A stretch of 64,000 nt of DNA from Anaeramoeba ignava BMAN. Lineage: Eukaryota; Protista; Anaeramoebae. This document shows, one piece after another, positions 62 through 64,000 of the stretch (positions are counted from its first letter, which is position 1; every line of letters begins with the position of its first letter). Under the pieces are notes generated by a model. That model did not search any database, was not told where the DNA came from, and saw only the letters and a list, made by a program, of their open reading frames with translations. The position numbers and the translations under genes were made by a program. The stretch is taken from the NCBI GenBank assembly GCA_028826165.1, contig JAPDFW010000053.1, forward strand, positions 124,001 to 188,000, written 5' to 3'.

Positions 62-3000
62 ATGATTGTTGGAAAAATTTTAACAGTTTCTAATTTAAAT
101 AAAATTTATTCAATTGTTCGAAATTATAAAAATATAAAATTTTATTCCAAAGAAATTAAAACAAAAAAAGAAAAAACAGATTTTAAAGTTGAAAAAAAGA
201 AAGATGGTTTAATAGAAATACCAACAACTCCAAAAGAACCAGCTGGAGCAAGACATATGCCTACTGATATAGTTTTAGTGAGGCATGGTGAATCTGAAGG
301 AAATGTTTATTTGAGAAAATCAAATCATTCATTTAAAGAAACTTTTATAAATAGACCAAGTATTTTTTACATTTAGAAACTATTTTATAAATCTAAATAT
401 AAATCTAAATCTAAATCTAAATCTAAATCTAAATATAAATATAAATCTAAATCTAAATCTAAATCTAAATCTAAATTTAAATCTAAATCTAAATTTAAAT
501 CTAAATCTAAATATAAATCTAAATCTATTTTTAAATCAATTTTTAAATCAATTTTTAAATCTATTTTTAAATCAATTTTTAAATCAATTTTTAAATCTAT
601 TTTTAAATCAATTTATAAATCTATTTTTAAATCAATTTATAAATCTATTTTTAAATCAATTTTTAAATCAATTTTTAAATCAATTTTTAAATATATTTTT
701 AAATCTATTTTTAAATCTAAATATAAATATAAATCAATTTTTAAATCTATTTTTAAATCAATTTTTAAATCTATTTTTAAATCTATTTTTAAATCTATTT
801 TTATATCTATTTTTAAATCTATTTTTAAATCAATTTTTAAATCTAAATATAAATCTAAATATAAATATAAATCTAAATCTATTTATAAATCAATTTATAA
901 ATCTATTTTTAAATCTATTTTCTAAATCTAAATATAAATCTATTTTTAAATCAACATTTAAATCAATTTTTAAATCTATTTTTAAATCAATATTTAAATC
1001 AATTTATAAATCTATTTATAAATCAATTTATAAATCTATTTTTAAATCTATTTTTAAATCTATTTTTAAATCAATATTTAAATCAATTTATAAATCAATT
1101 TATAAATCAATTTTTAAATCAATTTTTAAATCTATTTTTAAATCTATTTATAAATCTATTTTTAAATATATTTTTAAATATATTTTTAAATCAATTTTTA
1201 AATCAATTTTTAAATCTATTTATAAATCAATTTTTAAATCTATTTTTAAATCAATTTATAAATCAATTTTTAAATCTATTTTTAAATATATTTATAAATC
1301 TATTTTTAAATCTATTTTTAAATCAATTTTTAAATCTATTTTTAAATCAATTTTTAAATCTATTTTTAAATCTATTTATAAATCAATTTTTAAATCTATT
1401 TTTAAATCAATTTATAAATCAATTTTTAAATCAATATTTAAATCTATTTTTAAATCTATTTATAAATCTATTTATAAATCTATTTTTAAATCTATTTTTA
1501 AATCAATTTTTAAATCAATATTTAAATCTATTTTTAAATCTATTTATAAATCTATTTATAAATCTATTTTTAAATCTATTTTTAAATCAATTTTTAAATC
1601 TATTTTTAAATCTATTTATAAATCTATTTTTAAATCAATATTTAAATCAATTTATAAATCTATTTTTAAATCAATATTTAAATCAATTTATAAATCTATT
1701 TATAAATCTATTTTTAAATCTATTTTTAAATCAATTTTTAAATCTATTTATAAATCTATTTTTAAATCTATTTTTAAATCAATTTTTAAATCTATTTTTA
1801 AATCAATTTTTAAATCTATTTTTAAATCAATTTTTAAATCAATTTTTAAATCTATTTATAAATCAATTTATAAATCTATTTTTAAATCATTTTTAAATCT
1901 ATTTTTAAATCTATTTTTAAATCAATTTTTAAATCTATTTATAAATCAATTTTTAAATCTATTTTTAAATCAATTTATAAATCAATTTTTAAATCAATTT
2001 TTAAATCAATTTTTAAATCTATTTTTAAAATCTATTTATAAATCTATTTTTAAATCTATTTTTAAATCTATTTTTAAATCTAAATCAATTTATAAATCAA
2101 TTTCTAAATCTAAATTTAAATCTATTTATAAATCTATTTTTAAATCAATTTTTAAATCTATTTTTAAATCAATATTTAAATCTATTTTTAAATCAATATT
2201 TAAATCAATTTTTAAATCAATTTATAAATCAATTTATAAATCTATTTATAAATCAACTTTTAATTCTATTTATAAATCTATTTTTAAATTTATTTTTAAA
2301 TCTATTTTTAAATCTATTTATAAATCAATTTTTAAATCTATTTTTAAATCTATTTTTAAATCAATATTTAAATCTATTTTTAAATCTATTTTTAAATCAA
2401 TTTTTAAATCTATTTATAAATCTATTTTTAAATCAATATTTAAATCTATTTTTAAATCTATTTTTAAATCTATTTTTAAATCTATTTTTAAATCTATTTT
2501 TAAATCTATTTTTAAATCTATTTTTAAATCTATTTTTAAATCTATTTTTAAATCTATTTTTAAATCAATTTATAAATCAATTTATAAATCAATTCCTAAA
2601 ATAAAAATTAAGCTTCGTTATGGAGATTAACAAAAAAAGGAAGAGAACAAGCAAATACAACAGGAGATTGGATTAAAAAAAATATATCTTCACAATTTTA
2701 TCGATATTATACAAGTGAATATTTAAGAGCAATGGAAACAGCAGCTTTATTTAATATTCCTAATGCTCATTGGCTTACAGCTACTTATTTACGTGAAAGA
2801 GATTGGGGTCAATTTGAATTATTAACAAATGAAGAAAGATGGGAAAGATTTAGATTAGAAATGATGAGAAGAAAAAGGGATAGTTTCTATTTTGCTCCTC
2901 CTGGTGGTATTTAAATCAAAATCAAAATCAAAATTTAAATCAAAATATAAATCAAAATCAAAATCAAATTTAAAATTAAAATTAAAATATAAATCAAAAT

Positions 3001-4180
3001 ATAAATCAAAATATAAATCAAAATATAAATCAAAATTTAAAATCAAAATTAAAATCAAAATCAAAATCAAAATCAAAATATAAATTAAAATCAAAATTTA
3101 AATCAAAATCAAAATCAAAATCAAAATCAAAATCAAAATCAAAATCAAAATCAAAATCAAAATCAAAATCAAAATCAAAATCAAAATCAAAATCAAAATC
3201 AAAATCAAAATCAAAATCAAAATCAAAATCAAAATCAAAATCAAATTCAAATTCAAATCAAATTTAAAATTAAAATCAAAATCAAAATCAAATTTAAAAT
3301 TAAAATATAAATCAAAATCAAAATATAAATTAAAATATAAATTAAAATCAAAATCAAAATCAAAATCAAAATTAAAATCCAAAATCAAAATATAAATTAA
3401 AATATAAATTAAAATCAAAATCAAAATCAAAATCAAAATCAAAATATAAATTAAAATATAAATCAAAATCAAATTTAAAATCAAAATCAAAATCAAAATC
3501 AAAATCAAAATCAAAATTAAAATCAAAATTAAATTCAAATTCAAATTCAAAATCAAAATTAAAATTAAAATCAAAATCAAAATATAAATTAAAATCAAAA
3601 TTTAAATTAAAATCCAAAATCAAAATTAAAATAAAAATATAAATTCAAATCAAAATTTAATCAAAATCAAAATTAAATTCAAAAATCAAAATCAAAATCA
3701 AAATTGGAAAAAAATTAAAATTAAAATTAAAATTAAAAAAAAGGTGAATCAATGGCTCAAGTTCTTGTTAGAGTTGATCATGTTCTCTCAATTTTACATT
3801 CAGAATGTTCACATAAAAAAATATTAATTGTTTCACATGGAGAAGTAATATCAGCATTTATGATCAGATTAGAAAAAATATCACAAATTCAATATAAAGA
3901 ATTCTGCGAATCACATAAAACAGAACCTCATAGATTACTCAATTACTGTCAAGTAGTTCATTACACAAGAATAAATCCAGAAACAAAACAAATCTCTCCA
4001 AATTTAAAATGGGTTCGAAGTGTTTGTCCTTGGAATATCAAAAAATCTGATTTAAATTGGAGAGAATTTGGTAGAACTTTTTATACAAATGAAAAAATTT
4101 TGGAAGTTGTTTCAAAATATCCTCCTTTAATTGATTCTGAAGAAGATGATCTTGAAGATGATCTTGAAGATGATTCTTGA
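62..4180 (+). CDS. Histidine phosphatase / phosphoglycerate mutase family protein, 3 exons (62-359, 2613-2906, 3744-4180)
   Basis: Motifs LVRHGESEGN, WRLTKKGREQA, TSEYLRAMETA, LRERDWG, PPGGES and IVSHGE. The GT-AG introns 360-2612 and 2907-3743 join the three ORF pieces in frame. Confidence 0.9.
380..2600 (+). repeat. Intronic 12-bp satellite (AAATC[T/A]ATTT[T/A]T)n, ~2.2 kb, preceded by (AAATCT)n
   Basis: Directly visible degenerate tandem repeat filling intron 1. It contains no G on the sense strand. Confidence 0.95.
2910..3735 (+). repeat. Intronic hexamer microsatellite (AAAATC/AAAATT/ATATAA)n
   Basis: Visible tandem repeat filling intron 2. It generates the spurious ILILIL/SKSK/DFDF ORFs. 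Confidence 0.95.
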
Positions 4181-4420
4181 AATTTTTTTTAATTGAATTG
4201 AATTTTTTTAATTTGAATTGAATTTTTTTTGAATTTAAATTGAAATTTTTTAAATTTAAATTGAAATTTTTTAATTGAATTGAATTTTTTAATTTGAATT
4301 GAAATTTTTTTAATTTGAATTGAAATTTTTTTAATTTGAATTGAAATTTTTTTAATTTGAATTGAATTTTTTTTAATTTGAATTGAAATTTTTTTGAATA
4401 AAAAAAAATATTCAGTTTTC

Positions 4421-10400: not shown

Positions 10401-12727
10401 GGGCGAAATTGAATAACCCATTTCCTCGGCTTCGTTATTTGGAAAATGGGTTATTACATACAAATTTAATAATTGTGAACGAAGCCGATTTAATGAAGAA
10501 ATTTCATTCTCAAATACAGATAGATTTTGTTTTAATTGGGTAATGATATTCTGGTATTTGTTTTGCTTATTATTAAATTCAATTTCTGGATCTTGTGATG
10601 GAAATTGATCCATTTTTATGTGTTGGAATTCGTATTGAGTTGTTGCTTTCGAGAGGATTTGAGGTGCTCCGTGATTTGTTTTATATTTACTTGAAAAACG
10701 TTGTTGATGGATTTTGTCATTTAGATTCATTCTGGTATTTTTTGGAGATTCTACAAAAGATAATCCTCGAGAATTCAATTTTCTGTTTTTCAATGGAGTT
10801 TTTTTTTTGTTTTGAATATTAAATTCGGCAAGTGATTTTGTTCTTGTATCTTTTTCTTCTTCAATTTCTTTCTGTTCTTCACTTTTTATTGAAAAATTTG
10901 AATTTGATTTTAATTTTGATTTTGATTTTGGATTTGAACCAATCAAAATTCTGTTCAATTCAAAAAGTTTTTTGTGTAATTTTATCCTTGTTTCTTCAGC
11001 AAACCCCAAAATATCAGCTCGTTTTTGTTCGATCCAAAAAACAAGTTCGTTTGTCATTTTTTCATAATTTAAAGAACTGTTAATATCAGGAGATGAAATA
11101 TGAGAGTTGTTTATCATGTTCCAATTCATAACTAAACGCATAATTTGGATCCATTCATCCAACAAATTTTGCTCAACAACTCCAAAAGTGTTCATTGAGT
11201 CTTGTATATAAACAGAAAAGCTAAAGGGATCGTTTTCTTGGGAATCAATTTTTTTGACGGATTTCAATTCGGATAATTTGTATGAAATTTCTGGAATTGA
11301 ATCGTACTTGGAATTGTAAATAAAGAAATGATTCTGGGAAATTTGCGCCCATTTTTGTTTCCAAACGTCTTGTTTTGATCTTGAATTATAAAGAAGAAGA
11401 TTATTTTGGAATTTGATTTCCAAATCTTGCAAATCACAGTTTGAATTTTGGATTAAATTTTCATTTTGGTTTTTATCATCAATAACAATTTTGTCAGGAA
11501 TAAGAAGGACAGTGTTATTAATAGGAAACCAGCCAACTTTTCCATTATTTTCTCCAAACCAGTATGTGTCTTGATACGCCTCAAGTAAATTGATCAAATC
11601 AAATTTCTGAAGTTGAAGTTCCTTCTCATTTCTCGGCATAAAATTCTCAACGACAAGTAAAAACTGGCGAGGCGAAGAATAAAGATCTTGGTGAATAAGA
11701 AATAAGTTGTGAAGTATAAATTGCTCCCATTTTTGGATTGTTTGCAATTTATGTCGAAAAATTATCAATTCCACATTTTGATTCAAAAAATGATCGTTTT
11801 TTTCATCTTGTTTTTGCTTTAAAGTTTGAATTTTGAGTTGTTCCAAAAATTCAAGTAAAGTTTTTAACAGATCTTTGTCGTAGTAATCCAGCTTTCTTTT
11901 TGGTAAATTTTGGAAAACTTGAATCAATTTAAGAGTTGAATTCCAAGATTCAAGTTCAAGTTGATTTTCAAACTGAAGAAAGTATTTTTGTTGATTGGCA
12001 GCAATTTCCAGAGTTGAAGGGATTACTGGATCAGATATATAAGGATAAAAAGAGAGGGGATTATTAAAATTAATTGAGAAAATTTTGGTTGAAATGTCCT
12101 GAGTTTGGTTGAAATCCGTTGTGTTATAAAATGAAAGAGTATTGTTTTCTAAAATCAAGAAACCTTTTTTGTGATTTAAAGTTTCATTTTCAAGAAGATT
12201 CACAACAGCCTTTTTATCAAATAAGGCTTCCAAATCGATATCTGTTTGTTGTTCGTCAAATTTCAGAAAAAGTCGCTTGATTTTTTCTTTTGGTTCTTCA
12301 AGTGTTCTGTATTTTTCAGGGATTCCAAAGTTGGATGAAAAGATTTCTGGGTTTGTTGGTGAGAATTTTTCAATATTCGCGTTAATTTTCATTTCATTTA
12401 TTCTCAATGTTTGGGATGAAATTATTTTTGAATTTTGCGTTTTTTGGATTGAAGTTAAAATTTCTTTTTGTGGATTTAAATTATTAATTGGGAAAGTAAA
12501 ATTTTCTAATGAAAAACAAATCCAAAAATTAATACCAAAAAATTCTTCAGTTAATTTTTTATTTTTTTTTTACCTGGAAATTTTCCTTTTTGTTTTGATT
12601 TTGTTGATATTCCAAAATTCCATCCATTTTCAATTTTTTCAATTTCTATTATTTCTCCTCTTTGGAAGTTTAGAATATTTTTAAATTGTGCAAGATAATC
12701 AAATAAAGCTATTGAAGAAAAAGCCAT
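4421..12727 (-). CDS. Giant multi-SH3/multi-PH Ras GTPase-activating protein (~2,740 aa); intron ~12507-12572; one frameshift near 7665
   Basis: Exon 1 (ATG 12727) encodes an SH3 domain (ALFDY..GW..GKFP|ENF). Further SH3 motifs include GKVGWFPINN, GKVGDVPEKNV and GKTGLIPSNKV. PH domains are marked by WKQKWAQI, WKLRWMMI and WKKYWAKI with C-terminal W-helices. RasGAP signatures are LFRGKSESSKIL, FVFLRFICPSIVTP and LVLISKVIQSIAN. A PH domain is split across ORFs 7620-12407 and 4421-7780. Confidence 0.85.
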
Positions 12728-12874: not shown

Positions 12875-13570
12875 ATGCAAAATTTAGCTATTTCTGATAC
12901 TGGAGCAATTATTCATGAATTTTCAAGTCAATAGTAAATTAATTCTTTTAATTTTTTTTTTAAAAAAAAAATTCTTTTTACATTTTTTTTATCAAAACAA
13001 TATCAAAATTTTTTAATTAAAAAGTCATCATGAATCAAGATGTTCGAATTTATTACTTAGAGATCCTTCACTTGTTTGGTTTACATCAGTTACAGAACAA
13101 CGTTAATATTTTAAAAAAAATTCATAATTAAATTTTCAATTTAAAATTTTTTCAATTTAAAAATTTTTTCAATTTAAAATTTTGAAATATTTTTTCTTTT
13201 AGTTCCTCAATATGTTATTTTTAAATTAAAATCTGAAGCTGAAATTTATAAAGTTGGAATTTATCTTCATGGAGAAAATAATCAAAATCCAAAAAGTAAA
13301 AAAATTTTTCGAAAATTTTTCAATTCATTTTTTTATTCATTTTTTTTTTATTATAAAAAAGGAATTGAAATTTTAGTTTCTGAAAATGGAAAAGATTTTA
13401 TAAGTATTATTGAATCCGAACTTGAACATCGAGCTGGAGATTTTTTATTTAAATTAGATAAACCAATTAATGGTTCTTTTGTTAAGTTTCTTATAACTGA
13501 AAATTTTGGAGGATCTGGAATTTATATTTCAAAATGTTTTGTTTTTGGGAAATTAATAGAGAAAATTTAA
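12875..13570 (+). CDS. Small galactose-binding-like (F5/8C/discoidin) beta-sandwich protein, IFT25/HSPB11-like; 4 exons; not in the ORF track
   Basis: Manual splicing (introns ~12934-13024, 13102-13202, 13296-13361) gives MQNLAISDTGAIIHEFSSQYHHESRCSNLLLRDPSLVWFTSVTEQLPQYVIFKL...NPKRIEILVSENGKDF...FVKFLITENFGGSGIYISKCFVFG. Confidence 0.7.
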
Positions 13571-13678: not shown

Positions 13679-16600
13679 ATGGATTTTAAAGTTAAAAATC
13701 ATAGTTTGAATTTTGTTTCTAAACAATCTAATGAATTATCATGTTTATCTTTTTATGAAAAAATACCAATAAATGATATTGATTTAGAAACTTTAGAATT
13801 TTATGCTGTTGATCGATTAAAAGGTGAAAAAAATTAAAAATTAAAAATTAAAAATTAAAAATTAAAATTAAAATTTTTAAAAAAAAAGTTTTATGGGAAA
13901 TTGAAAGATTACAAACTGCAAAAAAAGATTATGAAACTGCTCAACAACTTTCTTTTGTTATTGACAGATATTTACCTTTATCAAATAAATCAACAACAGA
14001 ACAAAGAGATAAAGATTTAATTTCTCATTTTCTTCTTCGTTGTTGTTTTTGTCATAAGTATTTTTTAAAATAATCAAAATTTTCCCGAAAAGAAAAAAAA
14101 AATAATTTATTTTTTCATATTAAAATTTTCTTTTATTTAATTTAGTGAAGAAGATCGGATTTGGTTTATTAAAAATGAAACTAAACTTTTTGAATCTAGA
14201 TATTATTCATTATCACCTCAAGATAAAAGAAAATTTATTTCTGAAAATTTTCCACATAAACCAATTGTACTAATTTTAATTTAATTTTTAAATTCAATTA
14301 GAAATAATTTTTAAAATTTTTAAAATTTTTATAGAATTTTCAATTATTGGATCCAATGATTAAAAATTCATTATTAATGACAGATAGGCTTGAGTCTAAA
14401 TTTTATAAAGTAAATTGCAAACAAATTTAATTTCAAATTTAATTTCAATTTCGAAATATTTTTAAAAATCATTTCTAAAGATTCCTTTTACAGAAGCTGG
14501 TGAATTAATTGGTTCTAAAAAAGCTTATTTAAATCAAGGATTTGCTTATTTTTCTGAAAAAGTAATTGGGAAAATTTTCAGAACTCAATTCAACCAAAAA
14601 ATTGCGATTGGATTACAAAAAGCTTCTAATATCTTTGATAAATTTGATGAAAGAATCCAAAAAATGATTGAAAAATTAAGATCCAAAAATAACACTTTTT
14701 TTCAATTTGGAAATCAAGATGGAACACATATTGAATTTGATGAATTGAAGAATAAAATTAAATCATTTCCTTTATGCATGAAATTAATTTATGAAAAACT
14801 AATTCAAGATCATCATTTAAAACATCAAGGAAGAATTCAATTAGGTTTATTTTTGAAAGTAATTTCAATTTATTTTAATTTTTTAATTTTAATTTATTTT
14901 AATTTTTTAATTTCAATTTCTTTTAATTTTTTAATTTCAATTTATTTTAATTTTTTAATTTCATTTTCTTTTAATTTTTTAAATTTATTTTATTTTAATT
15001 TTTTAATTTCAATTTATTTTAATTTTTTAATTTCAATTTATTTTAATTTTTTAAATTCATTTTATTTTAATTTTTTAAAAGGGAATTGGATTATCAGTTC
15101 ATGATTCAATTCGTTTTTGGAAACAAGAATTTTTGAAAAAAATGACTGAAAAAGATTTTGAAAAGGATTATATTTATGGAATTAAATATAATTATGGTCT
15201 TGAAGGAAAAAGAGTGAATTGGTCACCATATTCTTGTCCGAAAATTATTGGATTAAAACCTGCTCCTGATGATTTTTCTGGTTGTCCTTTTAAATTTTTA
15301 TCTACTCATAATTTCAAACAAATTCTTCTTAATCTTGAACAAAAACCAAATGAAGAACAAATTAATGAGCTTATTTCATTAAAAGAAGGTGGTCATTGTC
15401 AAGTAATTTAATTCAATTTTTTTAAAATTAATTTAAATATTTTTTTCCGATTTTAATTTAAATATTGATTTAAATATTAATTTAAATATTAATTTAAATA
15501 TTAATTTAAATATTTTATTTGAATATTAATTTGATTTAAATATTAATTTAAATATTAGATTTAAATATTAATTTAAATATTTTATTTAAATATTAATTTA
15601 AATATTAATTTAAATATTAATTTAAATATTAATTTAAATATTGATTTAAATATTAATTTAAATATTAATTTAAATATTTGATTTAAATATTAATTTAAAT
15701 ATTAATTTAAATATTAATTTAAATATTTGATTTAAATATTAATTTAAATATTAATTTAAATATTAATTTAAATATTTGATTTAAATATTTGATTTAAATA
15801 TTAATTTAAATATTAATTTAAATATTTGATTTAAATATTAATTTAAATATTAATTTAAATATTAATTTAAATATTTGATTTAAATATTTGATTTAAATAT
15901 TTGATTTAAATATTAATTTTAAATATTAATTTAAATATTAATTTAAAAATTTGATTTAATTATTAATTTAAATATTAATTTTAAATATTAATTTAAATAT
16001 TAATTTAAATATTGATTTAAATATTAATTTAAATATTAATTTAAATATTGATTTAAATATTAATTTAAATATTTAATTTAAAATATTTTTAAATATTTAT
16101 TTAAATATTGATTTAAATATTTGATTTAAATATTTGATTTAAATATTTGATTTTAAATATTTTATTTGATTTAAATATTTGATTTAAATATTTTATTTGA
16201 TTTAAATATTTGATTTAAATATTTATTTGATTTAAATATTAATTTAAATATTTTTAAATATTAATTAAAATATTTGATTTAAATATTAATTTAAATATTA
16301 ATTTTAAAATTATTTAAATATTAATTTAAATATTTAATTTAAATATTAATTTAAATATTAATTTAAATATTAATTTAAATATTATTTTAAATATTTGATT
16401 TAAAATTTGATTTAAATATTTGATTTAAATAATTTTGATTTAAATATTAATTTAAATATTTGATTTAAATATTAATTTAAATATTTGATTTAAATATTAA
16501 TTTAAATATTAATTTAAATATTGATTTAAATATTGATTTAAATATTAATTTAAATATTTGATTTAAATATTAATTTAAATATTAATTTAAATATTTGATT

Positions 16601-17459
16601 TAAATATTTGATTTAAATATTTGATTTAAATAAATTTATTTAAAAATTTTATTTAAAATATTTAAAATAATTTAATTTAAATTTAAATATTAATTTAAAT
16701 ATTTAATTTGATTTAAATATTGAATTTAAATATTTGATTTAAATATTTGATTTAATTTAAATATTAATTTAAATATTTGATTTAAATATTTGATTTAAAT
16801 ATTTGATTTAAATATTTGATTTAAATATTGATTTAAATATTTGATTTTAAATATTTGATTTAAAATATTTGATTTAAAATATTGATTTAAATATTTGATT
16901 TAAATATTTGATTTAAATATTTGAGATTTAAATATTTGATTTAAATATTTGATTTAAATATTGATTTAAATATTAATTTAAATATTTGATTTAAATATTT
17001 GATTTAAATATTTGATTTAAATATTTGATTAAATATTAATTTAAAATAATTTAAAAATTTGATTTAAATATTTGATTTAAATATTTGATTTAAATATTTG
17101 ATTTAAATATTTGATTTAAATATTAATTTAAATATTTGATTTAAATATTGATTTAAATATTTGATTTAAATATTTGATTTAAATATTTGATTTAAATATT
17201 TGATTTGAATATTTGATTTAATTGATTTGATTTAAATATTAATTAAAATATTTTTTTCCGATTTTAATTTAATTTTGATTTTGATTTAATTTTTTATTAA
17301 AAAAAGGTTGCTTGTCAACGTTATTGGGATTTAGTTCATCCTGGTTTAGATGAACCTTTGAATAAATTATCTGGAATTGAACATCCAAATTCATATTTTA
17401 AATATAGTGAAGAATATTATGAAATACAAAAAGAAAAAGAAAAAGAAAAAGAAAAATAA
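13679..17459 (+). CDS. PRIM2: DNA primase large subunit (p58), 7 exons
   Basis: Motifs AVDRLKVL, DLISHFLLR, FPLCM, HHLKHQGRIQLGLFLK|GIGL, YNYGLEGKRVNWSPYSCPKI, GCPF, VACQRYW and IEHPNSYF. All four 4Fe-4S cysteines are present, and the six GT-AG introns are in frame. Confidence 0.95.
15440..17260 (+). repeat. Intronic 12-13-bp satellite (ATTTAAATATTA / ATTTAAATATTTG)n in primase intron 15403-17306
   Basis: Visible tandem repeat rich in the palindrome ATTTAAAT. Confidence 0.95.
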
Positions 17460-17541: not shown

Positions 17542-18798
17542 ATGAGATTTACTTCAGAAATTTCAAATTTACCTTTATTTATTCATTTAGTTCAAGCACT
17601 TTCTAAAATTGATTTAGAAGCAATTATACATTTAACACAAGATAAAATTATTTTTATTTTAGATTCACAAGATTATATTAAAGTTTTTTCAGGAGTTCAA
17701 CAAGTAAAATTAAAATTAAAATTAAAATTAAAATTAAATTTAAAATTAAAATTAAAATTAAAATTAAAATTAAAATTAAAATTAAAATTAAAATTAAAAT
17801 TAAAATTAAAATTAAAATTAAAATTAAAATTAAAATTAAAATTAAAATTAAAATTAAAATTAAAATTAAAATTAAAATTAAAATTAAAATTAAAATTGAA
17901 ATTAAATTATTTTAGGAATATTTATTTTCAGAATATTCAATTCAAAGTTTACATAATAATGAAATTGGTTTAAAAATTAATCTTAAAAATTTATTATGTG
18001 CTTTAAAATCTGGTTCAAATATTCAAGAAAAAATATCAATGAAATTAACAAAAAAAGAATCGAATCCATTTATAACAATTACAATAAATTCAGATGAAAG
18101 CAAAGTAAAAAAAAATCAATTTAAAAATCATTTAAAAATTTAATTAAAAAATCAATAAAAAATCAATAAAAAATCAATTAAAAAATCAATTTAAAAATCA
18201 ATTAAAAAATCTATTTAAAAATCTATTTAAAAATCAATTAAAAAATCAATTAAAAATTTGGATAAATTTTTATTAATAAAAGATGATTGTAACTCATGAT
18301 GTTCCTGTTCAAGTTTTAACTCCACAAAATCTTGAACAACATCCAGAACCAACATTACCTGAACCAGAAGTAAAAATTATGATGCCAAGACTTGAAGTTT
18401 TACAAAAAGTAATAGAAAAGATGAAGAATTTAAGTGATTTTTTAATAATTGAAGGAGATATGGGTGGAAATTTAAAATTAAAAGTAGAAACTGATGTTGT
18501 AACTGCTGAAACTTCTTTTTCTAATTTGGATATTGTTCATTTTCAAGAGTTGGAATCTCCTCAAGCAAATGAAGATATTAAAGCAGTTTCTAAATTGGAT
18601 ATTAAAAAGTTTTCAAGAGCTTTATTATGTTCTATAATTAAACCTTCTGATGTTGCTTGTTGTAAGTTATTTTAATTTTCTATTTTATAAATTTATAATT
18701 TAATTTTTAATTTAGGTTTTATTCGTAATTCAATTGTTTTACTTCATGTTACTTTGGATGAATTATATATAACTTATTATATTGCTTCAATTTTATAA
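17542..18798 (+). CDS. HUS1: HUS1, 9-1-1 checkpoint clamp subunit, 4 exons
   Basis: MRFTSEI..., LFSEYSIQSLHNNEIGL, MKLTKK, IVTHDVPVQVL, VKIMMPRL..VIEKMKNLSD, C-terminal ITYYIA. Introns are 17704-17915 ((AAAATT)n), 18105-18282 and 18662-18715. Confidence 0.9.
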
Positions 18799-21453: not shown

Positions 21454-21464
21454 AATTTATTAAC

Positions 21465-22763: not shown

Positions 22764-24115
22764 ATGGAAAACTTACAATTTCATGAAGTAAAATCGATTA
22801 TTTTCTAATTTTTTGCTTTTAAATTCTTTTTTACGTTAATTTTTTTGTTATTGTTATTATTATTGAAAAAATAAAAGCAACTTAGAAAACAAAAAACTCA
22901 ATCAGAAAATGAAAGAGAAATGATTGTTAACGAATTTTTTCAAATTCTTTCAACAAGAAACCAACAAATTCAAACACTTTCAGAAACTTTAAGAAATTTA
23001 AGTGTTTTTACAACAAAAATTAAAAATGAAAGAGATAAACTTGTTGAATTTTTAAATAATCATGAATTTGGATCATTTGATGTTGAAATTCTTGAAAAGG
23101 AAAGAAAAGAAAAACAAGAACTTATTGAAAAAAACGAAAACCTTGAATCAACTTTAAATCAAAAGGAAAATCAATTGAATCAAGTTAAAATTCAATATGA
23201 AAGTTGTCTTGGCATTTTGGAAGAAAATCAAAATCAAAACAAACAAATTATTGAAGAAAAGGAAAAAATTCAGGAAAAAAATACTCAAGATAATCTTCTT
23301 CTTTTAAGCATATTGACGAATTGGAATCAAAAATCAATTTGTTATCCCAAAAAAATGGAGTCGAAAATTTAAAGAATGAAAATGATAAATTAGTCATGAA
23401 TATTCACAAATTGGAAGAAAAAATACAAAAACTAGAAAAAGAAAAGTCAGAAAATCCTTATGAAAATGAACACTTGATTTTAATTGAACACATTGAAAGT
23501 TTAGAATCCAAAATCGACCAACTTGAAAAAGAAAAAATGTCGCAAAACAACGACAACCTTTTTCAACATCTTGAATTATTAGAGTCAAATATAAAAAAAC
23601 TGGAGGAGGAAAAGAAAAAAATGCAGAAAAGCTCAGAGGAAACAAAATTGCTGCTTGATCACATTCAATCTTTGGAATCCAAAATTCGCATCAAAGAAAT
23701 TGAAAATTTGGAACTGAGAAATGAAATGGAAGAACAACTTAATTTGGCAAAAAATATTGAATCACTTAATCGCGAAAACCAAAGATTGCAAAACGAAAAT
23801 ATGAGAATCAAAACCTTATTCAATCAAACAAACCAAAAGGAAATTCTTTCTCTTAAAAAGCAAATCGAAAATCTCCAATCACAACTTGATAAATCTCAAA
23901 CTCCTCCAAGTTTGACTCAAAGAGAATATTCTCTTCTTGTTTCAAGAATTGAAGATTTGGAAAGTGAAAATAAAAGGCTTAAAGAAACTAAAACCCTTTC
24001 AAATAATAATTCTGTTGCTGAACTTCAAAAGAAACTTGAAGAAGAGAAATCAAATAATGAATTGTTGATTCAATATATCCAACAATTAACAAAATCAAAA
24101 AAAGGAAAAAAATAA
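22764..24115 (+). CDS. Coiled-coil protein of unknown function; intron 22788-22877; frameshift near 23303
   Basis: MENLQFHE|QLRKQK... joins the ORF in frame. The internal repeat (HIDELESKI / HIESLESKI / HLELLESNI / HIQSLESKI) continues across the two overlapping ORFs. Confidence 0.75.
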
Positions 24116-24248: not shown

Positions 24249-26513
24249 TTAATTAAGTTGATAATATCTCATCATTAATTGCAATTGTTCCTTTTGTTCA
24301 TTTGTTAAACTATTCATTTTTTCAGGTGAAGAAAATAAATCTTTTAAAAATAATTGGAATTGTGCTTTTTGTACTTGGAAAGAATTTGCAGAAAGTGGAG
24401 GAAGAACATTTAAAGAAGGATTTAAAAATGAAGGAAGAGAAGAAAAATTCTGATTAAAATTTGGTTGTAAAGGAAATTGAGAAGGAAAATGAGTTGAACT
24501 ATTAAATGAAGGAAGAAAAGAAATTCCATTTTGATTTGCCTGCAAATTGCTTCTTGTTGGATCGGTAAATAATAAAGAGGATTTTTTAGCATCATCAATT
24601 GAGTCCATTTTGGAAATTTTTTGTTTTATATTATCAGATGTTTTTTGAGGTGTTTGATGCTCAAAATTGAGTGAGGAATCTCTTTGTGGCCAAGTTGATA
24701 AAACTGTTTGAATTAAATTTTCAATTTTCTTTTGAATATCTTTTTTGGGAACATCCGTGATAGATATTCCATTTATCATCCCAAGAACCATTTGTGCTTG
24801 TAGGAGTGCGATTGAAAGTTGTGGATTTTTTACTAGTTTTTCTTTTTCTTGTTCAGGATGTTTTGCAACTAATTCTTTCATTTTATGCATTACATTATAA
24901 ATTTGTTCAATTGTCATTGAAGACAACTGACTAACAATAGAATCCAAAACCTATTCCAATTACAATTAAATATAAAATTAAATATAAAATTAAATATAAA
25001 ATTAAATATAAAATTGAATATAAATTAAATATAAATTAAATATAAATTAAATATAAATTTGAATATAAATTGAATATAAAATTAAATATAAAATTAAATA
25101 TAAAATTGAATATAAATTGAATATAAATTGAATATAAATTAATTGATTAAAATTAAATATAAAATTGAATATAAAATTGAATATAAAATTGAATATAAAA
25201 TTAAATATAAATTAAATATAAAATTGAATATAAAATTGAATATAAATTTAAATATAAAATTGAATATAAAATTGAATATAAAATTGATTATAAAATTAAA
25301 TATAAAATTGATTATAAAATTGATTATAAAATTAAATATAAATTTGAATATAAATTAAATATAAATTTGAATATAAAATTGAATATAAATTTGAATATAA
25401 AATTGAATATAAATTTGAATATAAATTTGAATATAAATTAATTGATTAAATTTGAATATAAAATTGAATATAAAATTGAATATAAATTTGAATATAAAAT
25501 CGAATATAAATTTGAATATAAAATTTGAATATAAAATTGAATATAAATTTGAATATAAATTTAAATATAAATTTAAATATAAAATTAAATATAAATTTGA
25601 ATATAAATTTGAATATAAATTTGAATATAAAATTGAATATAAATTTGAATATAAATTTGAATATAAAATTAAATATAAAATTAAATATAAAATTGAATAT
25701 AAAATTAAATATAAATTTGGATATAAATTGAATATAAAATTGAATATAAAATTGGATATAAATCGAATATAAAATTTAATATAAATTAAATATAAATTAA
25801 ATATAAATTAATTGATTAAATTTGAATATAAAATTGAATATAAATTTGAATATAAATTTGAATATAAATTTGAATGATACTTTATTTTCAGAATTTTTTT
25901 GTTGTGATTCAATATTTTCTTCTTGTTTCATTTCATTTTCATTTTCATTTTCATTTTCATTTCATTTTGATTTTCATTTTGATTTTCATTTTGATTTTGA
26001 TTTGAATCAATATTATTATCAACATCCATTTCAATTTGATTTTGTTTATTTTTTTTTTCCATTTCAATTTGATTTTGTTTATTTTTTTTTTCCATTTGTT
26101 TATTTTGTTTATTTTGTTCCATTTCATTTTGTTTATTTTTCAAGTTGATTTTGTTTATTTTGTTCATTTTGTTCATTTTGTTTATTTTGTTTATTTTGTT
26201 CAATTTCATTGTCTTGTGTTGATTGAGGAGAATAATTGGGTGGAATATTTACTGGTTTCATCTCAATAATATCAAAGAAATAAAGATTTAAAGCATGATT
26301 TTTAATTATATAACCAGTTAAATTACGAATTGCATTAAACGCAATTAAATGACTTTGGAATTCGACAATTGCATATTTTACTTGTGTTTCTTGATCCAGT
26401 TTTTGAATACTAATCGAAGTGACTGGACCAAATCTTTCTAGTATTTCTAATAATTCTTCTTTTAAAACATCTTCTGGAATATTAAAAATGAAAACATGTT
26501 TAAAATTTTCCAT
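24249..26513 (-). CDS. CSTF2: Cleavage stimulation factor 64-kDa subunit (CstF-64/Rna15)-like; intron 24951-25880; two frameshifts in the low-complexity linker
   Basis: N-terminal RRM (VFIFNIP..FGPV..AIRNLTG), hinge domain (KNPQLSIALLQAQMVLGMI) and C-terminal CSTF_C-like motif (MNSLTNEQKEQL). Confidence 0.85.
24965..25870. repeat. Intronic 11-12-bp satellite (AAATTGAATATA)n
   Basis: Visible tandem repeat within the CstF-64 intron. It is essentially G-free on the sense (-) strand. Confidence 0.95.
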
Positions 26514-26615: not shown

Positions 26616-28354
26616 TTAAATCCTTTTAAAATGTGTAAATTTCTCAATTTTTTTAAATACTGGTTCATAAAGTTTTGATGCCAAAATATTTATATCTTTC
26701 ATACTTTGGCAATTTTCAATAAATAATTTGGCAATTAAAAATCCACCAGAATTTTGATTAATTTTCTTTTGAAAATTAGAACAATCTCCAATTAAATCAT
26801 CTAGTTGAGAATTACATTTTTCAACTAATAACAGAAAATGATCAGAAAATGATTGCAAACTTTTCATTTCATTCGACAAACGTAAATTTAAATAACGAAT
26901 GTTTGATTTGTTAAATCTTTTCAAAAAATTACAAAATAGTTCGGAATCATTTCCTTGAAAGATTTGTGAGATGGATTGATTCAAATTTTCAAGATTAAAA
27001 AATTGTTTTGAATCTTGGAATTTTTTGGGAATATTTGGTTCAGAACAAATTTTTTCTGATTCAATTCGGTTTTCAAAATCGAAACTTGACATTTTTAATT
27101 TTTGAGAAACTTGCGAACGAGGAAATTGTTTTGTTTGTTGGTTTGAGTCTAAAATTGAGAGGTTGTTTTCTCTTTCATTTTTTTGATCAGGATTTTTTTC
27201 GTTTACATGATTGGTTTGATCCAAAAAGTTCTGGTTGAACAGGGTTGATTTCAAAGGATGAACCTTGCGAACTTCAGAAAAAAGGGAGTTTTTCAAAATG
27301 GGTTTTCTTTCTTCAACTAATGGTGGCTCTTGATTGATTCTTTCGAGTCGAGAGATTTCTTCTCTTTGATTTTGGATTATGTTCATGTCATTATTGATTC
27401 TTTCTTCTAATGTAATTTGCGACAGTTGTAGTGCTTCAAGGGATTTTGTCACTTCTTTGAATTGTGATTCCAGTTGTTGATATTGCAATTTCTTCACTGA
27501 ACCATCCCGAAGAATCAAAACTTGATTTTGAACTTGTTTCACTTTCATGTTTGCTTCCGATAATTCGTTGGAAAGAAACTGGTTTTCATGTTCGAGTTCA
27601 GAAATCTTGTTTTTCAATTCTTTGTTTTGTATTTGTTGGTGTCGAAGTCGCAAGTTTTCATTTTGAGCATTTTCCAATTCAGATTTTAATCGGGAAATTT
27701 TCATCAATTTTTTCTGCAAATAATTTTCATCATAACTTTTCAAGTCATTTTTTCTTACTTCAGAAAATGCAAAAGTTTGAGTCAAAAACTTTTTCTGATT
27801 TTCTTCCATTTTCTGGAAATCCTTGAAAAGGTTCTCGTGATCTTCAGTAAGATTTTTATTTTCTTTTCTTAATTTATTAATTTCGAATTCAAGTTTGTGA
27901 TTTTGATTTTCGCATTTTTTGAGTTCTTCAAAAAGTTGATTATTTTCAGAAATAAGATCTGCTTTTTTTGATTCTTCTTTTTCGAGAAGAATAGAGTAAT
28001 TTTCAACTTTGGATTCAAGTGAGTAGTTTGTTTGCAATAAGGATTGCCCAATTTGCGCTGCGAGGAGAAGATCATGTTCTCTTTCACATAAAAGTTGCTC
28101 TATTTCTTGCAGTTGATTTTGAATTGTTTTTGTTTGTGATCTTGTTATTTCATTTGATTTTTGTCCATTTTTCCAAAATTGATCCAAAAATTTTTGATAA
28201 GATTCTTTATTGATTTCTATTTGTTTTGATATTAAAATAAATAATTAATTATAAATAAAAATATTTAATTAATTATTTTTTTTTTACTTTTTGGAGTTAG
28301 GAAATTATGATGAATTGGTGTTTGAATTGGAGAAATTGGAGTTGATTTAGACAT
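26616..28354 (-). CDS. Coiled-coil dynein-dynactin activating adaptor-like protein (HAP1_N/TRAK/BICD/Spindly type); intron 28217-28287
   Basis: CC1 box EREHDLLLAAQIGQSLL, a long coiled coil, then the Spindly motif KNSLFSEV ~258 aa downstream. Exon 1 MSKSTPISP... splices in frame. Confidence 0.75.
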
Positions 28355-52191: not shown

Positions 52192-53344
52192 TCATTTCAT
52201 TTCCACTAATGAATAATAACAACTATCATTATCTTGCTTCTCTTGATTTAGAAAATCTTTTGTAAAAGGTGATTGTTGATCATCATCTTTTTCTGGATTA
52301 AATGTTACTCTAAATCTTGAATATTCAGAACAACAATATCGAATTTTTGATCTAATTTCAACATCAAAAATTACAAATATCCAAAAATCCCAAAATCCTT
52401 GAGAAGTTATTAATAATGAATGTAAAATATCTAATGTTGGAATATCTTTTTCATAATGTAACATTTCTCTTATTCTCTTTTATTTATTAAATTTTAAAAT
52501 GAAATTAAAAAATATTAATTTTAATTTTAATCATTTCTAATATATAAAAAAAGGATAATACTCTAATTGTTGCTGGAATAATAATTATAAAATAAACTAA
52601 TGGAATTAAACTCATTCTTAATTGAATCCAAACTTTGTTTAAATGATTTTTCCTTTGGAATGGATCAAATCTTGAAACAATCTTAAATATTTTTCTTAAT
52701 CTAAACATAATTAAAATATAAAATACTAAACAAATAATTGCATAAAGCCAAAGAAAAAAGTAAACAACCTATTTTTATTAATATTAATATTAATATTATT
52801 TTTAATATTATTATTAATAATATTTTTACAAAAGTAACTTTTCCATTATCAGAATAACACCTAAATAATTAAATTAAATAATCAATTAATTTAGTTTAAT
52901 TTAATTTATAAATTTTTAGAAATACCAATAAGCTTTTGATTGAATTGGTTTTGTTGCAAAAATTGCCATCCAAATAGTAGAAAAAGTTTTAATCCACATT
53001 AATAAATGAAACCAATTTTGAATTTTATTAAGTTTCAAATCAGAAAATCCTTTAACAACTTTAAGATAAGATAATATTGAAATTGAAGCAGACCAAAATT
53101 GAGGAGCAGAAACAAAGCATGAAAGCATATAGAATTGAATATAACAAATTAATTTACTTTTTTGACCAGGTAATAAATAACTTAATGCTTGAAGAAAATC
53201 ATAAATTGAAAGAATAAATATTAATTTTCGATACAAATATCTAAGCTCTCTGAAATAAAGATAAATAATAATAATCAATAAAGAGCCAATCATTCCTAAA
53301 CTTGCACCAGTTATTGTTACAATATTTATCACTTTAAAATTCAT
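52192..53344 (-). CDS. cAR/GPR157-like GPCR copy 1 (4 exons)
   Basis: 7 hydrophobic segments; RKLIFILSIYDF, ICYIQ, YW|C, SQGFWDFWIF; microexon 52830-52860. Confidence 0.85.
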
Positions 53345-53599: not shown

Positions 53600-54750
53600 T
53601 CATTTCATTTGCATTTGCATTAAATGATAATAATTATCTTGCTTCTCTTGATTTAGAAAATCTTTTGTAAAAGGTGATTGTTGATCATCATCTTTTTCTG
53701 GATTAAATGTTACTCTAAATCTTGAATATTCAGAACAACAATATCGAATTTTTGATCTAATTTGTGGATCAAAAATTACAAATATCCAAAAATCCCAAAA
53801 TCCTTGAGAAGTTATTAATAACGAATGTAAAATATCTAATGTTGGAATATCTTTTTCATAATGTAACATTTCTCTTATTCTCTTTTATTTAAATAAATTT
53901 TAAAATGAAATTAAAAAATATTAATTTTAATTTTAATCATTTCTAATATATAAAAAAAGGATAATACTCTAATTGTTGCTGGAATAATAATTATAAAATA
54001 AACTAATGGAATTAAACTCATTCTTAATTGAATCCAAACTTTGTTTAAATGATTTTTCCTTTGGAATGGATCAAATCTTGAAACAATCTTAAATATTTTT
54101 CTTAATCTAAACATAATTAAAATATAAAATACTAAACATATAATTGCATAAAGCCAAAGAAAAAAGTAAACAACCTATTTTTATTAATATTAATATTAAT
54201 ATTATTTTTAATATTATTATTAATAATATTTTTACAAAAGTAACTTTTCCATTATCAGAATAACACCTAAATAATTAAATTAAATAATCATTTAATTTAA
54301 TTTAATTTAATTTATAAATTTTTAGAAATACCAATAAGCTTTTGATTGAATTGGTTTTGTTGCAAAAATTGCCATCCAAATAGTAGAAAAAGTTTTAATC
54401 CACATTAATAAATGAAACCAATTTTGAATTTTATTAAGTTTCAAATCAGAAAATCCTTTAACAACTTTAAGATAAGATAATATTGAAATTGAAGCAGACC
54501 AAAATTGAGGAGCAGAAACAAAACATGAAAGCATATAGAATTGAATATAACAAATTAATTTACTTTTTTGACCAGGTAATAAATAACTTAATGCTTGAAG
54601 AAAATCATAAATTGAAAGAATAAATACTAATTTTCGATACAATACTCTCAATTTTTTGAAATAAAGATAAATAATAATAATCAATAAAGAGCCAATCATT
54701 CCTGAACTTGCACCAGTTATTGTTACAATATTTATCACTTTAAAATTCAT
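53600..54750 (-). CDS. cAR/GPR157-like GPCR copy 2 (near-identical to copy 1)
   Basis: Same exon structure; microexon 54236-54266. Confidence 0.85.
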
Positions 54751-54972: not shown

Positions 54973-56166
54973 TTAATTTATTGAGTGCTGATCATTTCCT
55001 TCAAATTCAAGTAGAGGATGTTCAATGAATTTTTGATCAACGAAATCTTTATGGAATAGAGAATGGTTATTATCATCATCAAATTGTTCAAAACTTGGAT
55101 ATTCCAAAATTTCTAATTTTTGAGTATTTTTTGAGCATTTATTATAGATTTTTTTCCTCATTTCTGAATCAAAAACAATAAATATCAAAAAATCCCAAAA
55201 TCCATGAGTTGAAGAAAGTAAGGCACGAGGAATATCAATAGCAGGAATACTTTTATCTGGTGAATGATGAATATCATAAATTCTCTAAAATTGTTTTTTG
55301 TTTTAATTTAATTTAATTTAATTTAATTTAGAAAAGAAAAGAAAATTTACTCTTATTGTTGTTGGAATGAAAATTAGGATATAAATTAATGGAATAAAAC
55401 TCATTCGGATTTCTACCCAAATTTGGTTCATTTCTGATTTTTTTGATGAAGGATTTTTATTCAAGATGAATTTCACAATTTTTCTTAATCGAATAAGTGT
55501 TAAAATGTAAGAGATCAGACAAATAATCAAAAAAGTCCAAACAAATATGTAAAATGTCTAAGAAAAAATTTTTTAAGAAGTATTGTTAGATTTCCAAAGT
55601 TTGAATTGAGATCTAATTTTTCTAGAGGAAAAAAAATCAAATACAATTATAAAAGAAGAATGTGAGCAAAAGCACCTAAAAAACAAAATTAAATGAAAAA
55701 ACAATAAGAAAATTGAAATTAAATCAAAATCAAAATCAAAATCAAATTTCTACCAATAAGTTCTTGCATAAGTTGGATTTGGAAAAAAAGCAACAAATGA
55801 AGCAAAAAAGACAACAATCAACCACATCAATAAATGGAACAATTTTTGGATTTTATTCAATTTTTTTTCATTAAATCCTTTAACAACTTTCAGATAAGAT
55901 AAGAAGGAAATTGCAGCAGACCAAAATTGACAAGTTGAACCAAATCCAGCAATTAATTCACCTTGAATTCTACAAATAATTTTATTTGAATGACCTGGTA
56001 ACAAAAAACTTAATGAATGAACAAAATCATAAATAGATAAAATGAATATTAGTTTCCTATAGAAATTTTTCCACTCTTTAAAACGAAAATAAATTATTAG
56101 GATTATTAATGCTCCTGTTGTTCCCAAACTTGCTCCAATTATTGTTAATAGATCTTCTGTTTTCAT
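54973..56166 (-). CDS. cAR/GPR157-like GPCR copy 3
   Basis: Same 4-exon structure; microexon 55645-55675; STHGFWDF. Confidence 0.85.
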
Positions 56167-57848: not shown

Positions 57849-57959
57849 TTTTATTTAATAAAAAAAAAAATGAAAATCAAAAAAATCAAAAAAATTTTTA
57901 ATCAATTATTTGAAAAAAAAAAACAGAAAACTAAAAACTATTGAAGAAAAATTTTCAAA

Positions 57960-62774: not shown

Positions 62775-63139
62775 TTGAATTTTTTTTTTAAAAGTGAATT
62801 TTTTTTTTTTGATTAAATCTTATTGATTCAAATAGAAAAATAAAAATTTAAATGAAAAATGAAAAATCAAAAATTATCAAAAAAAATTTTTCTCTTTGTA
62901 AATAAATAAATAAATAAATAAAGATTATTCAAAGGAATTTATAAAATGAAAATGAAAGAAGATAAAAATGGATCAAAATATTTTTTCCACTTTTTTTTTT
63001 TAAAATCAAAATAGAAAATTGAAAATTGTTTTTATTTTGAAAATCAATTTAGAAAGTAAAATTGAACAAAAAAAAAAAAGAAAACAAAAATAATTATAAA
63101 AGAAAAAATATTGAAAGAATTTTTTTCATCCAAAAAAAA

Positions 63140-64000
63140 TTAATTTGAATCAGAATTTAAATTTAAATCTTGAGAAACTTCAGTGAGATTTTTTCCATCG
63201 CCAATTAAAGATTCATTGATATTATTTTCAGTGAAATTTTGAAAACTTGAAATTTTCTCAAATGATTGATTTTTTTGAGGAATTTTTTTAGTTAATTTTG
63301 TTCTTATTTCTGGATCAAAAATAACAAATATCAAAAAATCCCAAAATCCTTGTGAAATTGAAAGTAATCCTTGAAGAACATCAATAAATGTTATTTCTGA
63401 AGCATTTGGATATGCCAAATTTCTAATTCTCTTTTTTTTTTTTTTTTTTGAATTTAATTTTATATTTTGATTTTGATTTTGATTTTGATTTTGAAATTGA
63501 TTTTGAAATTGAAATTGATTTTGAAATTGAAATTGATTTTGAAATTGATTTTGAAATTGATTTTGATTTTGAAATTGATTTTGATTTTGAAATTGATTTT
63601 GATTTTGAAATTGAAATTGAAATTGAAATTGAAATTGATTTTGAAATTGAAATTGAAATTGAAATTGAAATTGATTTTGATTTTGAAATTGAAATTGATT
63701 TTGAAATTGATTTTGAAATTGATTTTGATTTTGATTTTGAAATTGAAATTGAAATTAAAATTAAAATAAATATCAAAAAAGATATACTCTAAATGATGTT
63801 GGAATAAAAATTATAATATAAATTAAAGGAACAAAACTCATTCTTAATTCAATCCAAAATTTATTAAGTTGACTAATTCTTTTGTTATAATTTCCCTTGA
63901 TATTTTGTTGATAAAACTTTTTTAATCGAATAAATATTAAAATGCAAAATACCAAACAAACCAATAAATAAAACCAATTAAAGGCATAGAGCGGCTAAAA
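63140..64000 (-). CDS. cAR/GPR157-like GPCR copy 7 (3' part; the gene extends beyond the window)
   Basis: Exons 3-4 (WIELRMSFVPLIY; SQGFWDF); intron 63431-63787 contains (GATTTT/GAAATT)n. Confidence 0.8.

What the first reader, a model, noticed from the sequence alone, without database searches (positions are those of the whole stretch)
360..63787. Whole-intron AG exclusion: the 3' splice site appears to be the first AG beyond ~35-40 nt from the donor
Seen: among the ~35-40 introns I could reconstruct, internal sense-strand AGs occur almost only within ~35 nt of the GT (e.g. 375, ~14092, ~14300, ~12544). After that there is none until the acceptor, even over 1.5-2.2 kb. The shortest intron is 54 nt. 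Internal control: GPCR6 intron 2 and PGM intron 1 have dozens of AGs on the antisense strand and none in the repeat on the sense strand, whereas the intergenic satellites (28510, 46200) carry AG freely. Exceptions: two AGs (~15557, ~16924) in the primase intron. Inference: acceptor choice is by scanning past a minimum length with weak branch/pyrimidine signals, so introns can grow only through AG-free repeats.
Basis: partly seen in the sequence, partly recalled or inferred. Interest (0 to 1): 0.72.

Follow-up and report, generated by a model that had tools for sequence, protein, structure and literature searches.

The report
Nearly signal-free, AG-free amoeba introns
In this stretch of the anaerobic amoeba Anaeramoeba ignava genome, 37 of 38 introns end at the first AG lying more than about 40 bases past their start and the set shows no shared branch-point or pyrimidine signal, which likely means the cell finds intron ends mainly from base composition and distance, although in the long introns the lack of AG is mostly a lack of G.

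Summary
The window encodes Anaeramoeba ignava proteins. I rebuilt 38 GT-AG introns: 21 from annotated proteins, 1 from an RNA contig, 16 from paralogy, homology or frame. Of 21 internal AGs, 19 lie at +3 to +38 and 2 lie deep in primase intron 6. "First AG at or beyond +39" recovers 37 of 38 acceptors. In short introns this beats composition (0 observed, 9.1 expected, P=0.0001), but most of that region is the ordinary AG-exclusion zone before any acceptor. In the 13 long introns, repeats fill the intron and the sense strand lacks G altogether in 11 of 12 informative cases; given a G, AG is not rarer than on the antisense strand (2/17 vs 13/60, P=0.5). The one G-rich array holds two AGs that the annotated primase skips. 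A donor-anchored rule fits non-repeat sequence about 20-fold better than an acceptor-anchored one, but on only 9 discriminating Gs. There is no pyrimidine tract and no branch consensus; 5 of 6 introns of one orthologous gene in other organisms keep CTRAC. Best reading: composition-defined introns with a leaky nearest-usable-AG rule. Scanning itself is not shown.

The parts
360..2612 (+). Histidine-phosphatase (PGM-like) intron 1, 2253 nt, 98% array; one internal G, in AG at +16
   Evidence: homology to P0014
2907..3743 (+). PGM-like intron 2, 837 nt, AAAATC array, no internal AG
   Evidence: homology
12506..12573 (-). Intron of the SH3/PH/RasGAP gene (labelled ArfGAP in my scripts), 68 nt; in-frame AAG at +28 skipped
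   Evidence: RNA contig joint; Pfam
12934..13024 (+). F5/8-domain gene intron 1, 91 nt
   Evidence: exact match to P0164
13102..13202 (+). F5/8-domain gene intron 2, 101 nt
13296..13361 (+). F5/8-domain gene intron 3, 66 nt
13824..13888 (+). Primase large subunit intron 1, 65 nt
   Evidence: exact match to P0001
14058..14145 (+). Primase intron 2, 88 nt, AG at +34
14267..14334 (+). Primase intron 3, 68 nt, AG at +34 (35 nt from the 3' end, the closest skipped AG)
14410..14480 (+). Primase intron 4, 71 nt
14859..15081 (+). Primase intron 5, 223 nt, array, no internal G
15403..17306 (+). Primase intron 6, 1904 nt; the only array with G on the sense strand (81 G); holds the two deep AGs
15557..15558 (+). 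Exception: TAG at +155 in a singleton repeat unit; its use would give a stop at the second codon
16924..16925 (+). Exception: GAG at +1522; no acceptor here is GAG
17704..17915 (+). Hus1 intron 1, 212 nt, TAAAAT array
   Evidence: frame and Pfam continuity
18105..18282 (+). Hus1 intron 2, 178 nt
18662..18715 (+). Hus1 intron 3, 54 nt, shortest
22788..22877 (+). Coiled-coil gene intron, 90 nt
   Evidence: frame only
24951..25880 (-). CSTF2-like intron, 930 nt, array
   Evidence: frame
28217..28287 (-). Coiled-coil (weak HAP1_N hit) gene intron, 71 nt
   Evidence: frame only
29978..31967 (-). PAQR/HlyIII-family gene intron, 1990 nt, array; AG only at +4
   Evidence: frame
52477..52925 (-). GPCR1 introns 52925-52861, 52829-52769, 52561-52477 (AG at +24 in the third)
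   Evidence: paralogy, open frame
53882..54331 (-). GPCR2 introns 54331-54267, 54235-54175, 53967-53882; near-copies of GPCR1, dropped from the statistics
55285..55753 (-). GPCR3 introns 55753-55676, 55644-55558 (AG at +22, +31), 55350-55285
   Evidence: exact match to P0009
56694..57432 (-). GPCR4 introns 57432-57356 (AG at +38, the furthest donor-side AG), 57324-57253, 57045-56694 (352 nt array)
   Evidence: exact match to P0010
58266..60246 (-). GPCR5 introns 60246-60177, 60145-59949 (197 nt; 5 of the 9 discriminating Gs), 59741-58266 (1476 nt array)
   Evidence: exact match to P0007
61128..62358 (-). GPCR6 introns 62358-62294, 62262-61432 (831 nt, 69 antisense AG), 61224-61128 (AG at +27, +31)
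   Evidence: exact match to P0008
63431..63787 (-). GPCR7 last intron, 357 nt, ends in a long A run plus G, with no pyrimidine tract
   Evidence: paralogy

Best explanation
These GT-AG introns carry almost no sequence signal beyond GTA at the start and TAG or AAG at the end, and the spliceosome likely recognises each one as an AU-rich block and likely joins the donor to the first TAG or AAG that lies beyond a minimum span of about 40-50 bases. Shown: the termini, the lack of a pyrimidine tract and of a branch consensus, the composition contrast (intron G+C median 0.07 vs 0.30 for exonic GTA..AG decoy spans), and the AG positions. Inferred: branch adenosines are so degenerate that almost any AG far enough from the donor has a usable branch A upstream, so it would act as an acceptor and is selected against, while AGs within ~38 nt of the donor are harmless because the spliceosome cannot close so short a loop. 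Inferred: long introns arise by expansion of short-period arrays, and G-poor arrays persist because they neither create acceptors nor look like exon. The rule is probably leaky rather than absolute. This needs no donor-to-acceptor scanning.
For: First AG at or beyond +39 to +53 recovers 37 of 38 acceptors, and 21 of 22 annotated or RNA-backed ones. In 22 short introns 0 AG beyond +39 vs 9.1 in shuffles (P=0.0001) and no deficit before it (10 vs 7.8). On 59 non-repeat Gs the donor-anchored model has lnL -18.8, the acceptor-anchored one -21.8, no exclusion -28.4. The RNA junction skips an in-frame AAG at +28 whose next 30 nt have G+C 0.17 and uses an AG whose next 30 nt have G+C 0.13 and no G, so distance and not exon-like context explains that skip. 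No pyrimidine tract, CTRAY in 1 of 35, arrays starting within 7 nt of the donor in 8 of 13 long introns. At G+C up to 0.15, 36 of 38 introns pass and 0 of 79 exonic GTA decoy spans of 54 nt or more pass. Introns of the F5/8 orthologs in L004, L005, L007 keep CTRAC in 5 of 6; 4 of them lie at positions shared with A. ignava introns that have none.
Against: The edge over the ordinary model rests on 9 Gs from 4 introns, 5 of them from one intron, and the +39/40 cut-off was read off the data. Primase intron 6 has a TAG at +155 amid 134 YTRAY motifs that the annotated protein skips; AG per G there (2 of 78) is not below that of unselected strands (4 of 602; P=0.14). In long interiors AG-type contexts are no rarer among sense Gs than antisense Gs (2/17 vs 13/60). 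AG avoidance alone does not predict that arrays whose unit lacks AG on both strands put G on the antisense strand in 8 of 9 cases (P=0.04). Only 1 junction has RNA support here; I did not see how the gene models behind the 21 annotated introns were made, and a gene finder could favour such acceptors.
Confidence: 0.55

Rival explanations
1. Ordinary acceptor-anchored AG-exclusion zone: the branch point lies within about 35 nt of the acceptor and AG is excluded only from there on. Long introns look AG-free because their arrays are G-poor on the sense strand for another reason, such as composition-based intron marking or strand-biased mutation.
For: The firmest signal is in the last 35 nt (0 of 22 vs 17 of 38). 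The closest skipped AG is 35 nt from the 3' end. It tolerates both primase AGs. G is on the antisense strand in 11 of 12 informative long introns (P=0.006; 0.02-0.05 after allowing for background skew or collapsing paralogs). Fourfold-degenerate sites also have C over G, 501 to 338.
Against: 0 of 9 mid-zone non-repeat Gs follow an A (P=0.011-0.031); fit is 3 lnL units worse. No branch motif peaks near the acceptor: YTRAY in the last 50 nt is 49 vs 38.6 shuffled (P=0.034) and spread over all positions. The 80 nt after 20 stop codons show no skew (93 C, 91 G, 35 AG), which speaks against a general transcription-linked mutation bias.
Confidence: 0.28
2. Donor-proximal branching with long second-step scanning: step 1 uses an adenosine about 25-45 nt from the donor and the spliceosome then scans to the first AG, so every long intron is a distant-branch-point intron with the array between branch and acceptor. 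This is closest to the first reader's wording.
For: Gives the same AG map; linear search from a distant branch point to the first AG is described for vertebrate exons (PMC1431707, passages).
Against: No motif peak near the donor (YTRAY flat over +1..+60); no pyrimidine tract at the 5' end of the AG-free zone, which the published class has; strict scanning would stop at +155 in primase intron 6 and truncate the protein.
Confidence: 0.12
3. Pure composition or assembly artefact: introns are about 92% A+T and repeats were smoothed by consensus calling, so AG is rare with no splicing cause.
For: A. ignava introns are reported at 91.86% A+T (PMC11550330, passages); AC is about as depleted as AG beyond +39; the assembly has at least one indel relative to the RNA contig.
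Against: Position- and strand-specific exclusion in non-repeat sequence cannot come from composition alone.
Confidence: 0.05

Closest known systems
AG-exclusion zone and distant branch points (Gooding et al. 2006, PMC1431707; passages read)
   Same: AG absent upstream of the acceptor, normal AG frequency further upstream, first AG used.
   Different: There the zone reaches 100 nt or more in 838 of 67,334 human exons and starts at a branch sequence with an adjacent pyrimidine tract. Here it covers nearly the whole intron in 37 of 38 cases, up to 2.2 kb, with neither signal.
Intron definition with weak signals in Paramecium tetraurelia (PMC8997360; passages read)
   Same: Many introns, weak splice signals, low G+C linked to splicing efficiency.
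   Different: Paramecium introns average 25 nt; here 54-2253 nt, with long ones filled by arrays.
AU-rich intron recognition in dicot plants (recalled; two searches found no paper on it)
   Same: AU-rich block marks the intron; weak branch and pyrimidine signals.
   Different: In that model the acceptor sits at the AU-to-exon boundary; the RNA-backed intron here uses an AG followed by an exon start as AU-rich as the sequence behind the skipped AG.
Anaeramoeba pumila introns (10.64898/2026.04.11.717937; passages read)
   Same: Same genus; 3' end without conservation beyond AG; shortest 48 nt.
   Different: Only 22 introns, with conserved GTTAGT donor and CT(G/c)AC branch point; the paper gives more than 30,000 introns for the other sequenced isolates.

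Membership tests
Major-class (U2-type) spliceosomal introns | GT..AG termini | tested here: met
Major-class (U2-type) spliceosomal introns | Removed from RNA | tested here: met
   1 of 38 tested, 1 confirmed
Major-class (U2-type) spliceosomal introns | Branch consensus (CTRAY-like) near the acceptor | tested here: not met
   CTRAY at -45..-12 in 1 of 35; YTRAY only weakly enriched, no positional peak
Major-class (U2-type) spliceosomal introns | Polypyrimidine tract | tested here: not met
   0.53 at -20..-4 vs 0.55 at +8..+24; range 0.06-1.0
Major-class (U2-type) spliceosomal introns | Lariat formation by U2 snRNP; presence of U2AF and SF1 | not testable with these tools
   no genome held; no lariat data
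Minor-class (U12-type) introns | RTATCCT donor (motif recalled) | tested here: not met
   none of the 38 donors listed begins so
Distant-branch-point introns | Long AG-exclusion zone before the acceptor | tested here: met
Distant-branch-point introns | AG at normal frequency upstream of the zone | tested here: met
   11 of 28 Gs at +8..+40 vs 116 of 363 intergenic (P=0.41)
Distant-branch-point introns | Branch sequence plus pyrimidine tract at the 5' end of the zone | tested here: not met
   no YTRAY peak near the donor; no tract
Distant-branch-point introns | Branch point mapped far from the acceptor | not testable with these tools
   needs lariat sequencing
Composition-defined (AU-rich) introns, plant type (recalled) | Sharp intron-exon composition contrast | tested here: met
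   median G+C 0.07 vs 0.30, P=5e-18
Composition-defined (AU-rich) introns, plant type (recalled) | Acceptor chosen at the AU-to-exon boundary | tested here: inconclusive
   used AGs have richer downstream sequence than skipped ones overall (P=2e-6, expected for any exon), but the RNA-backed case and GPCR3 intron 2 go the other way

The most novel reading that the evidence does not exclude
An intron-rich eukaryote has discarded both the branch consensus and the pyrimidine tract and defines every 3' splice site, genome-wide, as the first TAG or AAG more than 40-50 nt from the donor inside an AU-rich block, so that kilobase introns can exist only as G-free repeat arrays; the primase TAG is then an assembly error.
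Probability: 0.3. Interest if true: 0.7.

Novelty: new variant of a known kind. Interest (0 to 1): 0.45.

Why it matters
If the rule holds genome-wide it would be a natural minimal splicing code: tens of thousands of introns specified by two dinucleotides, a distance and base composition. It would make testable how a spliceosome picks a branch point and acceptor without consensus signals, explain why intron growth in this genome runs through strand-biased microsatellites, and give a contrast within one genus, since A. pumila kept few introns with strong signals. If the ordinary model holds, what remains is an extreme case of signal erosion plus an unexplained sense-strand G avoidance in intronic repeats.

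Tried and rejected
No whole genome is held for this window, so no genome-wide test. The run search listed one run and no holder on record as RNA; its contigs proved to be spliced. Only one intron was covered by laid contigs, so the primase exceptions remain unchecked against reads. The representatives search returned PGM homologs but not the A. ignava protein, so the two PGM introns rest on homology. The metagenome scan gave 7 loci of 215 pattern matches, none resembling this genome in composition (G+C 0.30-0.59); I used the intron-bearing L004, L005 and L007 only as comparators (L006 repeats L007). Raw dinucleotide O/E in introns was rejected as a test because repeat units dominate it. Transcription-linked mutation bias as sole cause of the G skew: not supported by 3' flanks. 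A branch motif near either end: none found. Earlier findings on this genome or like the GPCR: none. Ten paper searches found no description of splice signals or AG exclusion in A. ignava; the library lacks most subscription journals, the main supplementary PDF of PMC11550330 (which should hold the intron statistics table) was too large to read, its files 8 and 13-15 were not searched, and bioRxiv supplements are closed, so prior description is not excluded. PMC6564038 and 10.1101/784868 (passages) added nothing direct beyond noting steric limits on short introns in the latter; PMC10710043 (passages) treats introns only in relation to inteins.
Full report
Source. An exon of the primase gene matches a 453-aa protein named DNA primase large subunit of Anaeramoeba ignava at 100%; four GPCR-like proteins and an F5/8-domain protein from a contig of the same length also map exactly. 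The published A. ignava genome is 80.65% A+T with introns at 91.86% A+T and was built from nanopore reads with Racon, Nanopolish and Pilon correction (10.1101/2023.03.03.530753 and PMC11550330, passages). I did not establish that the window is from that very assembly. No whole genome was available, so all statistics come from this window.

Intron set. An exact spliced match of six annotated proteins gave one solution each and 21 introns. Contigs of run X1 skip 12506-12573 with CT..AC ends, a minus-strand intron of 68 nt. Sixteen more rest on homology (2), paralogy (7) or frame, some with Pfam support (7). Lengths are 54-2253 nt, median 86.5; 25 are at most 101 nt and 13 are 178 nt or more. The three GPCR2 introns, near-copies of GPCR1's, were dropped from the zone, motif and shuffle statistics (35 of 38 kept).

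Observation. There are 21 internal sense-strand AGs: 7 inside the donor motif (+3, +4), 12 at +16 to +38, and 2 at +155 and +1522 of primase intron 6. The rule 'first AG at or beyond T' recovers 37 of 38 acceptors for T from 39 to 53, against 27 for T=10 and 30 for T=65.

Chance. In the 22 short introns, shuffling the body gives 9.1 AGs beyond +39 against 0 observed (P=0.0001) and 7.8 before it against 10; the 16 annotated or RNA-backed ones give 0 against 7.4. Split by zone in non-repeat sequence, Gs preceded by A are 11 of 28 at +8..+40, 0 of 9 in the middle and 0 of 22 in the last 35 nt; antisense values are 18 of 46, 4 of 20 and 17 of 38; intergenic 116 of 363. So the strong signal is the last 35 nt, which is the AG-exclusion zone known from other eukaryotes (PMC1431707, passages). 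What would be new is the middle. There a donor-anchored model fits 3 lnL units better than an acceptor-anchored one, but on 9 Gs from 4 introns and with a cut-off chosen after seeing the data; against the antisense strand alone the middle is not significant (P=0.28).

Long introns. Tandem arrays cover 83-99% of 12 of the 13 long introns. The sense strand of these arrays carries C and almost no G: 11 introns have their G on the antisense strand, 1 on the sense strand, 1 on neither. Collapsed to distinct G-centred 7-mers, AG-type contexts are 2 of 17 on the sense and 13 of 60 on the antisense strand (P=0.5). The single array with sense-strand G, primase intron 6, has 2 AGs in 78 Gs against 4 in 602 on strands not expected to be under such selection (P=0.14): no sign of purging. 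One of the two is GAG, never used as acceptor here (TAG 21, AAG 14, CAG 0, GAG 0 of 35). The other is a TAG in a unit seen once among about 120, one letter away from a common unit, and may be a consensus error: the RNA contig shows a one-base indel at 7665, and several other genes change frame within otherwise open reading frames. Use of either AG would put a stop at the second codon and remove the C-terminal exon that homologs share.

Signals. The donor is GTA in 31 of 35; beyond +3 and before -3 no position carries more than 0.2 bits over intron background. There is no pyrimidine tract, several introns end in an A run plus G, and CTRAY occurs at -45..-12 in 1 of 35. By contrast 5 of 6 introns in F5/8 orthologs on loci L004, L005 and L007 have CTRAC, 4 of them at positions shared with A. 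ignava, and A. pumila is reported to keep CT(G/c)AC (10.64898/2026.04.11.717937, passages). This suggests erosion in the A. ignava line (inference, small sample). What separates introns from exonic GT..AG spans is composition: at G+C up to 0.15, 36 of 38 introns pass, 0 of 79 exonic GTA decoys and 4 decoys with any GT donor. The RNA-backed intron is informative: the skipped AAG at +28 is in frame and followed by sequence no poorer in G+C than the exon start behind the used TAG, and a further AG lies 42 nt on; the first AG past the minimum distance was used. Contigs drop rare variants, so minor use of other AGs is not excluded.

Mechanism. I favour intron definition on an AU-rich block with a nearest-usable-AG rule (0.55): with degenerate branch points nearly any AG far enough from the donor would be a valid acceptor. 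The minimum span lies between 39 and 54 nt by the data; that it reflects a steric limit between donor and branch point is inferred from general knowledge (steric limits on short introns are discussed in 10.1101/784868, passages). Rivals are the ordinary acceptor-anchored zone plus G-poor repeats (0.28), donor-proximal branching with long scanning (0.12) and pure composition (0.05). None of the first three explains by itself why arrays without AG on either strand still put G on the antisense strand in 8 of 9 cases; recognition of G-containing sequence as exon-like is a candidate (inference). Fourfold sites show C over G (501 to 338) but 3' flanks do not (93 to 91).

Novelty and verdict. AG-exclusion zones, first-AG choice and composition-aided intron definition are known; their combination with loss of both internal signals and array-filled kilobase introns was not found in ten searches of a library that lacks most subscription journals, and supplements that I could not read may bear on it. 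The feature is real but the distinctive part rests on few independent observations and has one possible counter-example in the primase gene. New variant of a known kind; interest 0.45.

Noticed in passing
window 15437-15461 and 17248-17272: An identical 25-nt stretch flanks the 1.8-kb array of primase intron 6 on both sides, as if the array grew from an internal duplication.
   Followed up: no
window 7665; also near 41094/40994, 37046/36976, 23294, 26140, 20662-20954: The RNA contig lacks one base at 7665, which joins two open frames of the SH3/PH/RasGAP gene; the other places show frame changes without usable splice sites and look like assembly indels.
   Followed up: partly
window 8073-12020: Run X1 differs from the window at 8 positions, all transitions; strain, allele or error not resolved.
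   Followed up: no
window 52195-64000: Tandem cluster of at least 7 GPCR-like genes with three introns at shared positions; the third intron ranges from 66 to 1476 nt among paralogs, and the first two genes are near-identical copies.
   Followed up: partly
window 12934-13361; L005 1076-1216; L007 5422-5622: All three F5/8-domain gene introns share position and phase with introns in orthologs on unnamed metagenome loci, so they are old.
   Followed up: partly
all introns: No CAG acceptor in 35; internal GTA occurs only at +5 or within 30 nt of the acceptor (3 cases), a possible mirror of the AG rule.
   Followed up: partly
window 32529-46179 and 47730-52094: A 13.6-kb gene with AAA domains (RNF213-like, label recalled), Vps16 and a BTB-BACK-TLDc gene show no introns and higher G+C than their intron-bearing neighbours.
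   Followed up: no
window 20474-21033: An AG-rich repeat on the sense strand of the ADP-ribosylglycohydrolase gene has no GT to serve as donor and reads as a low-complexity coding insert with frame breaks.
   Followed up: partly
long open frames of the window: Sense-strand C exceeds G at fourfold-degenerate sites (501 to 338) but not in the 80 nt after stop codons.
   Followed up: partly
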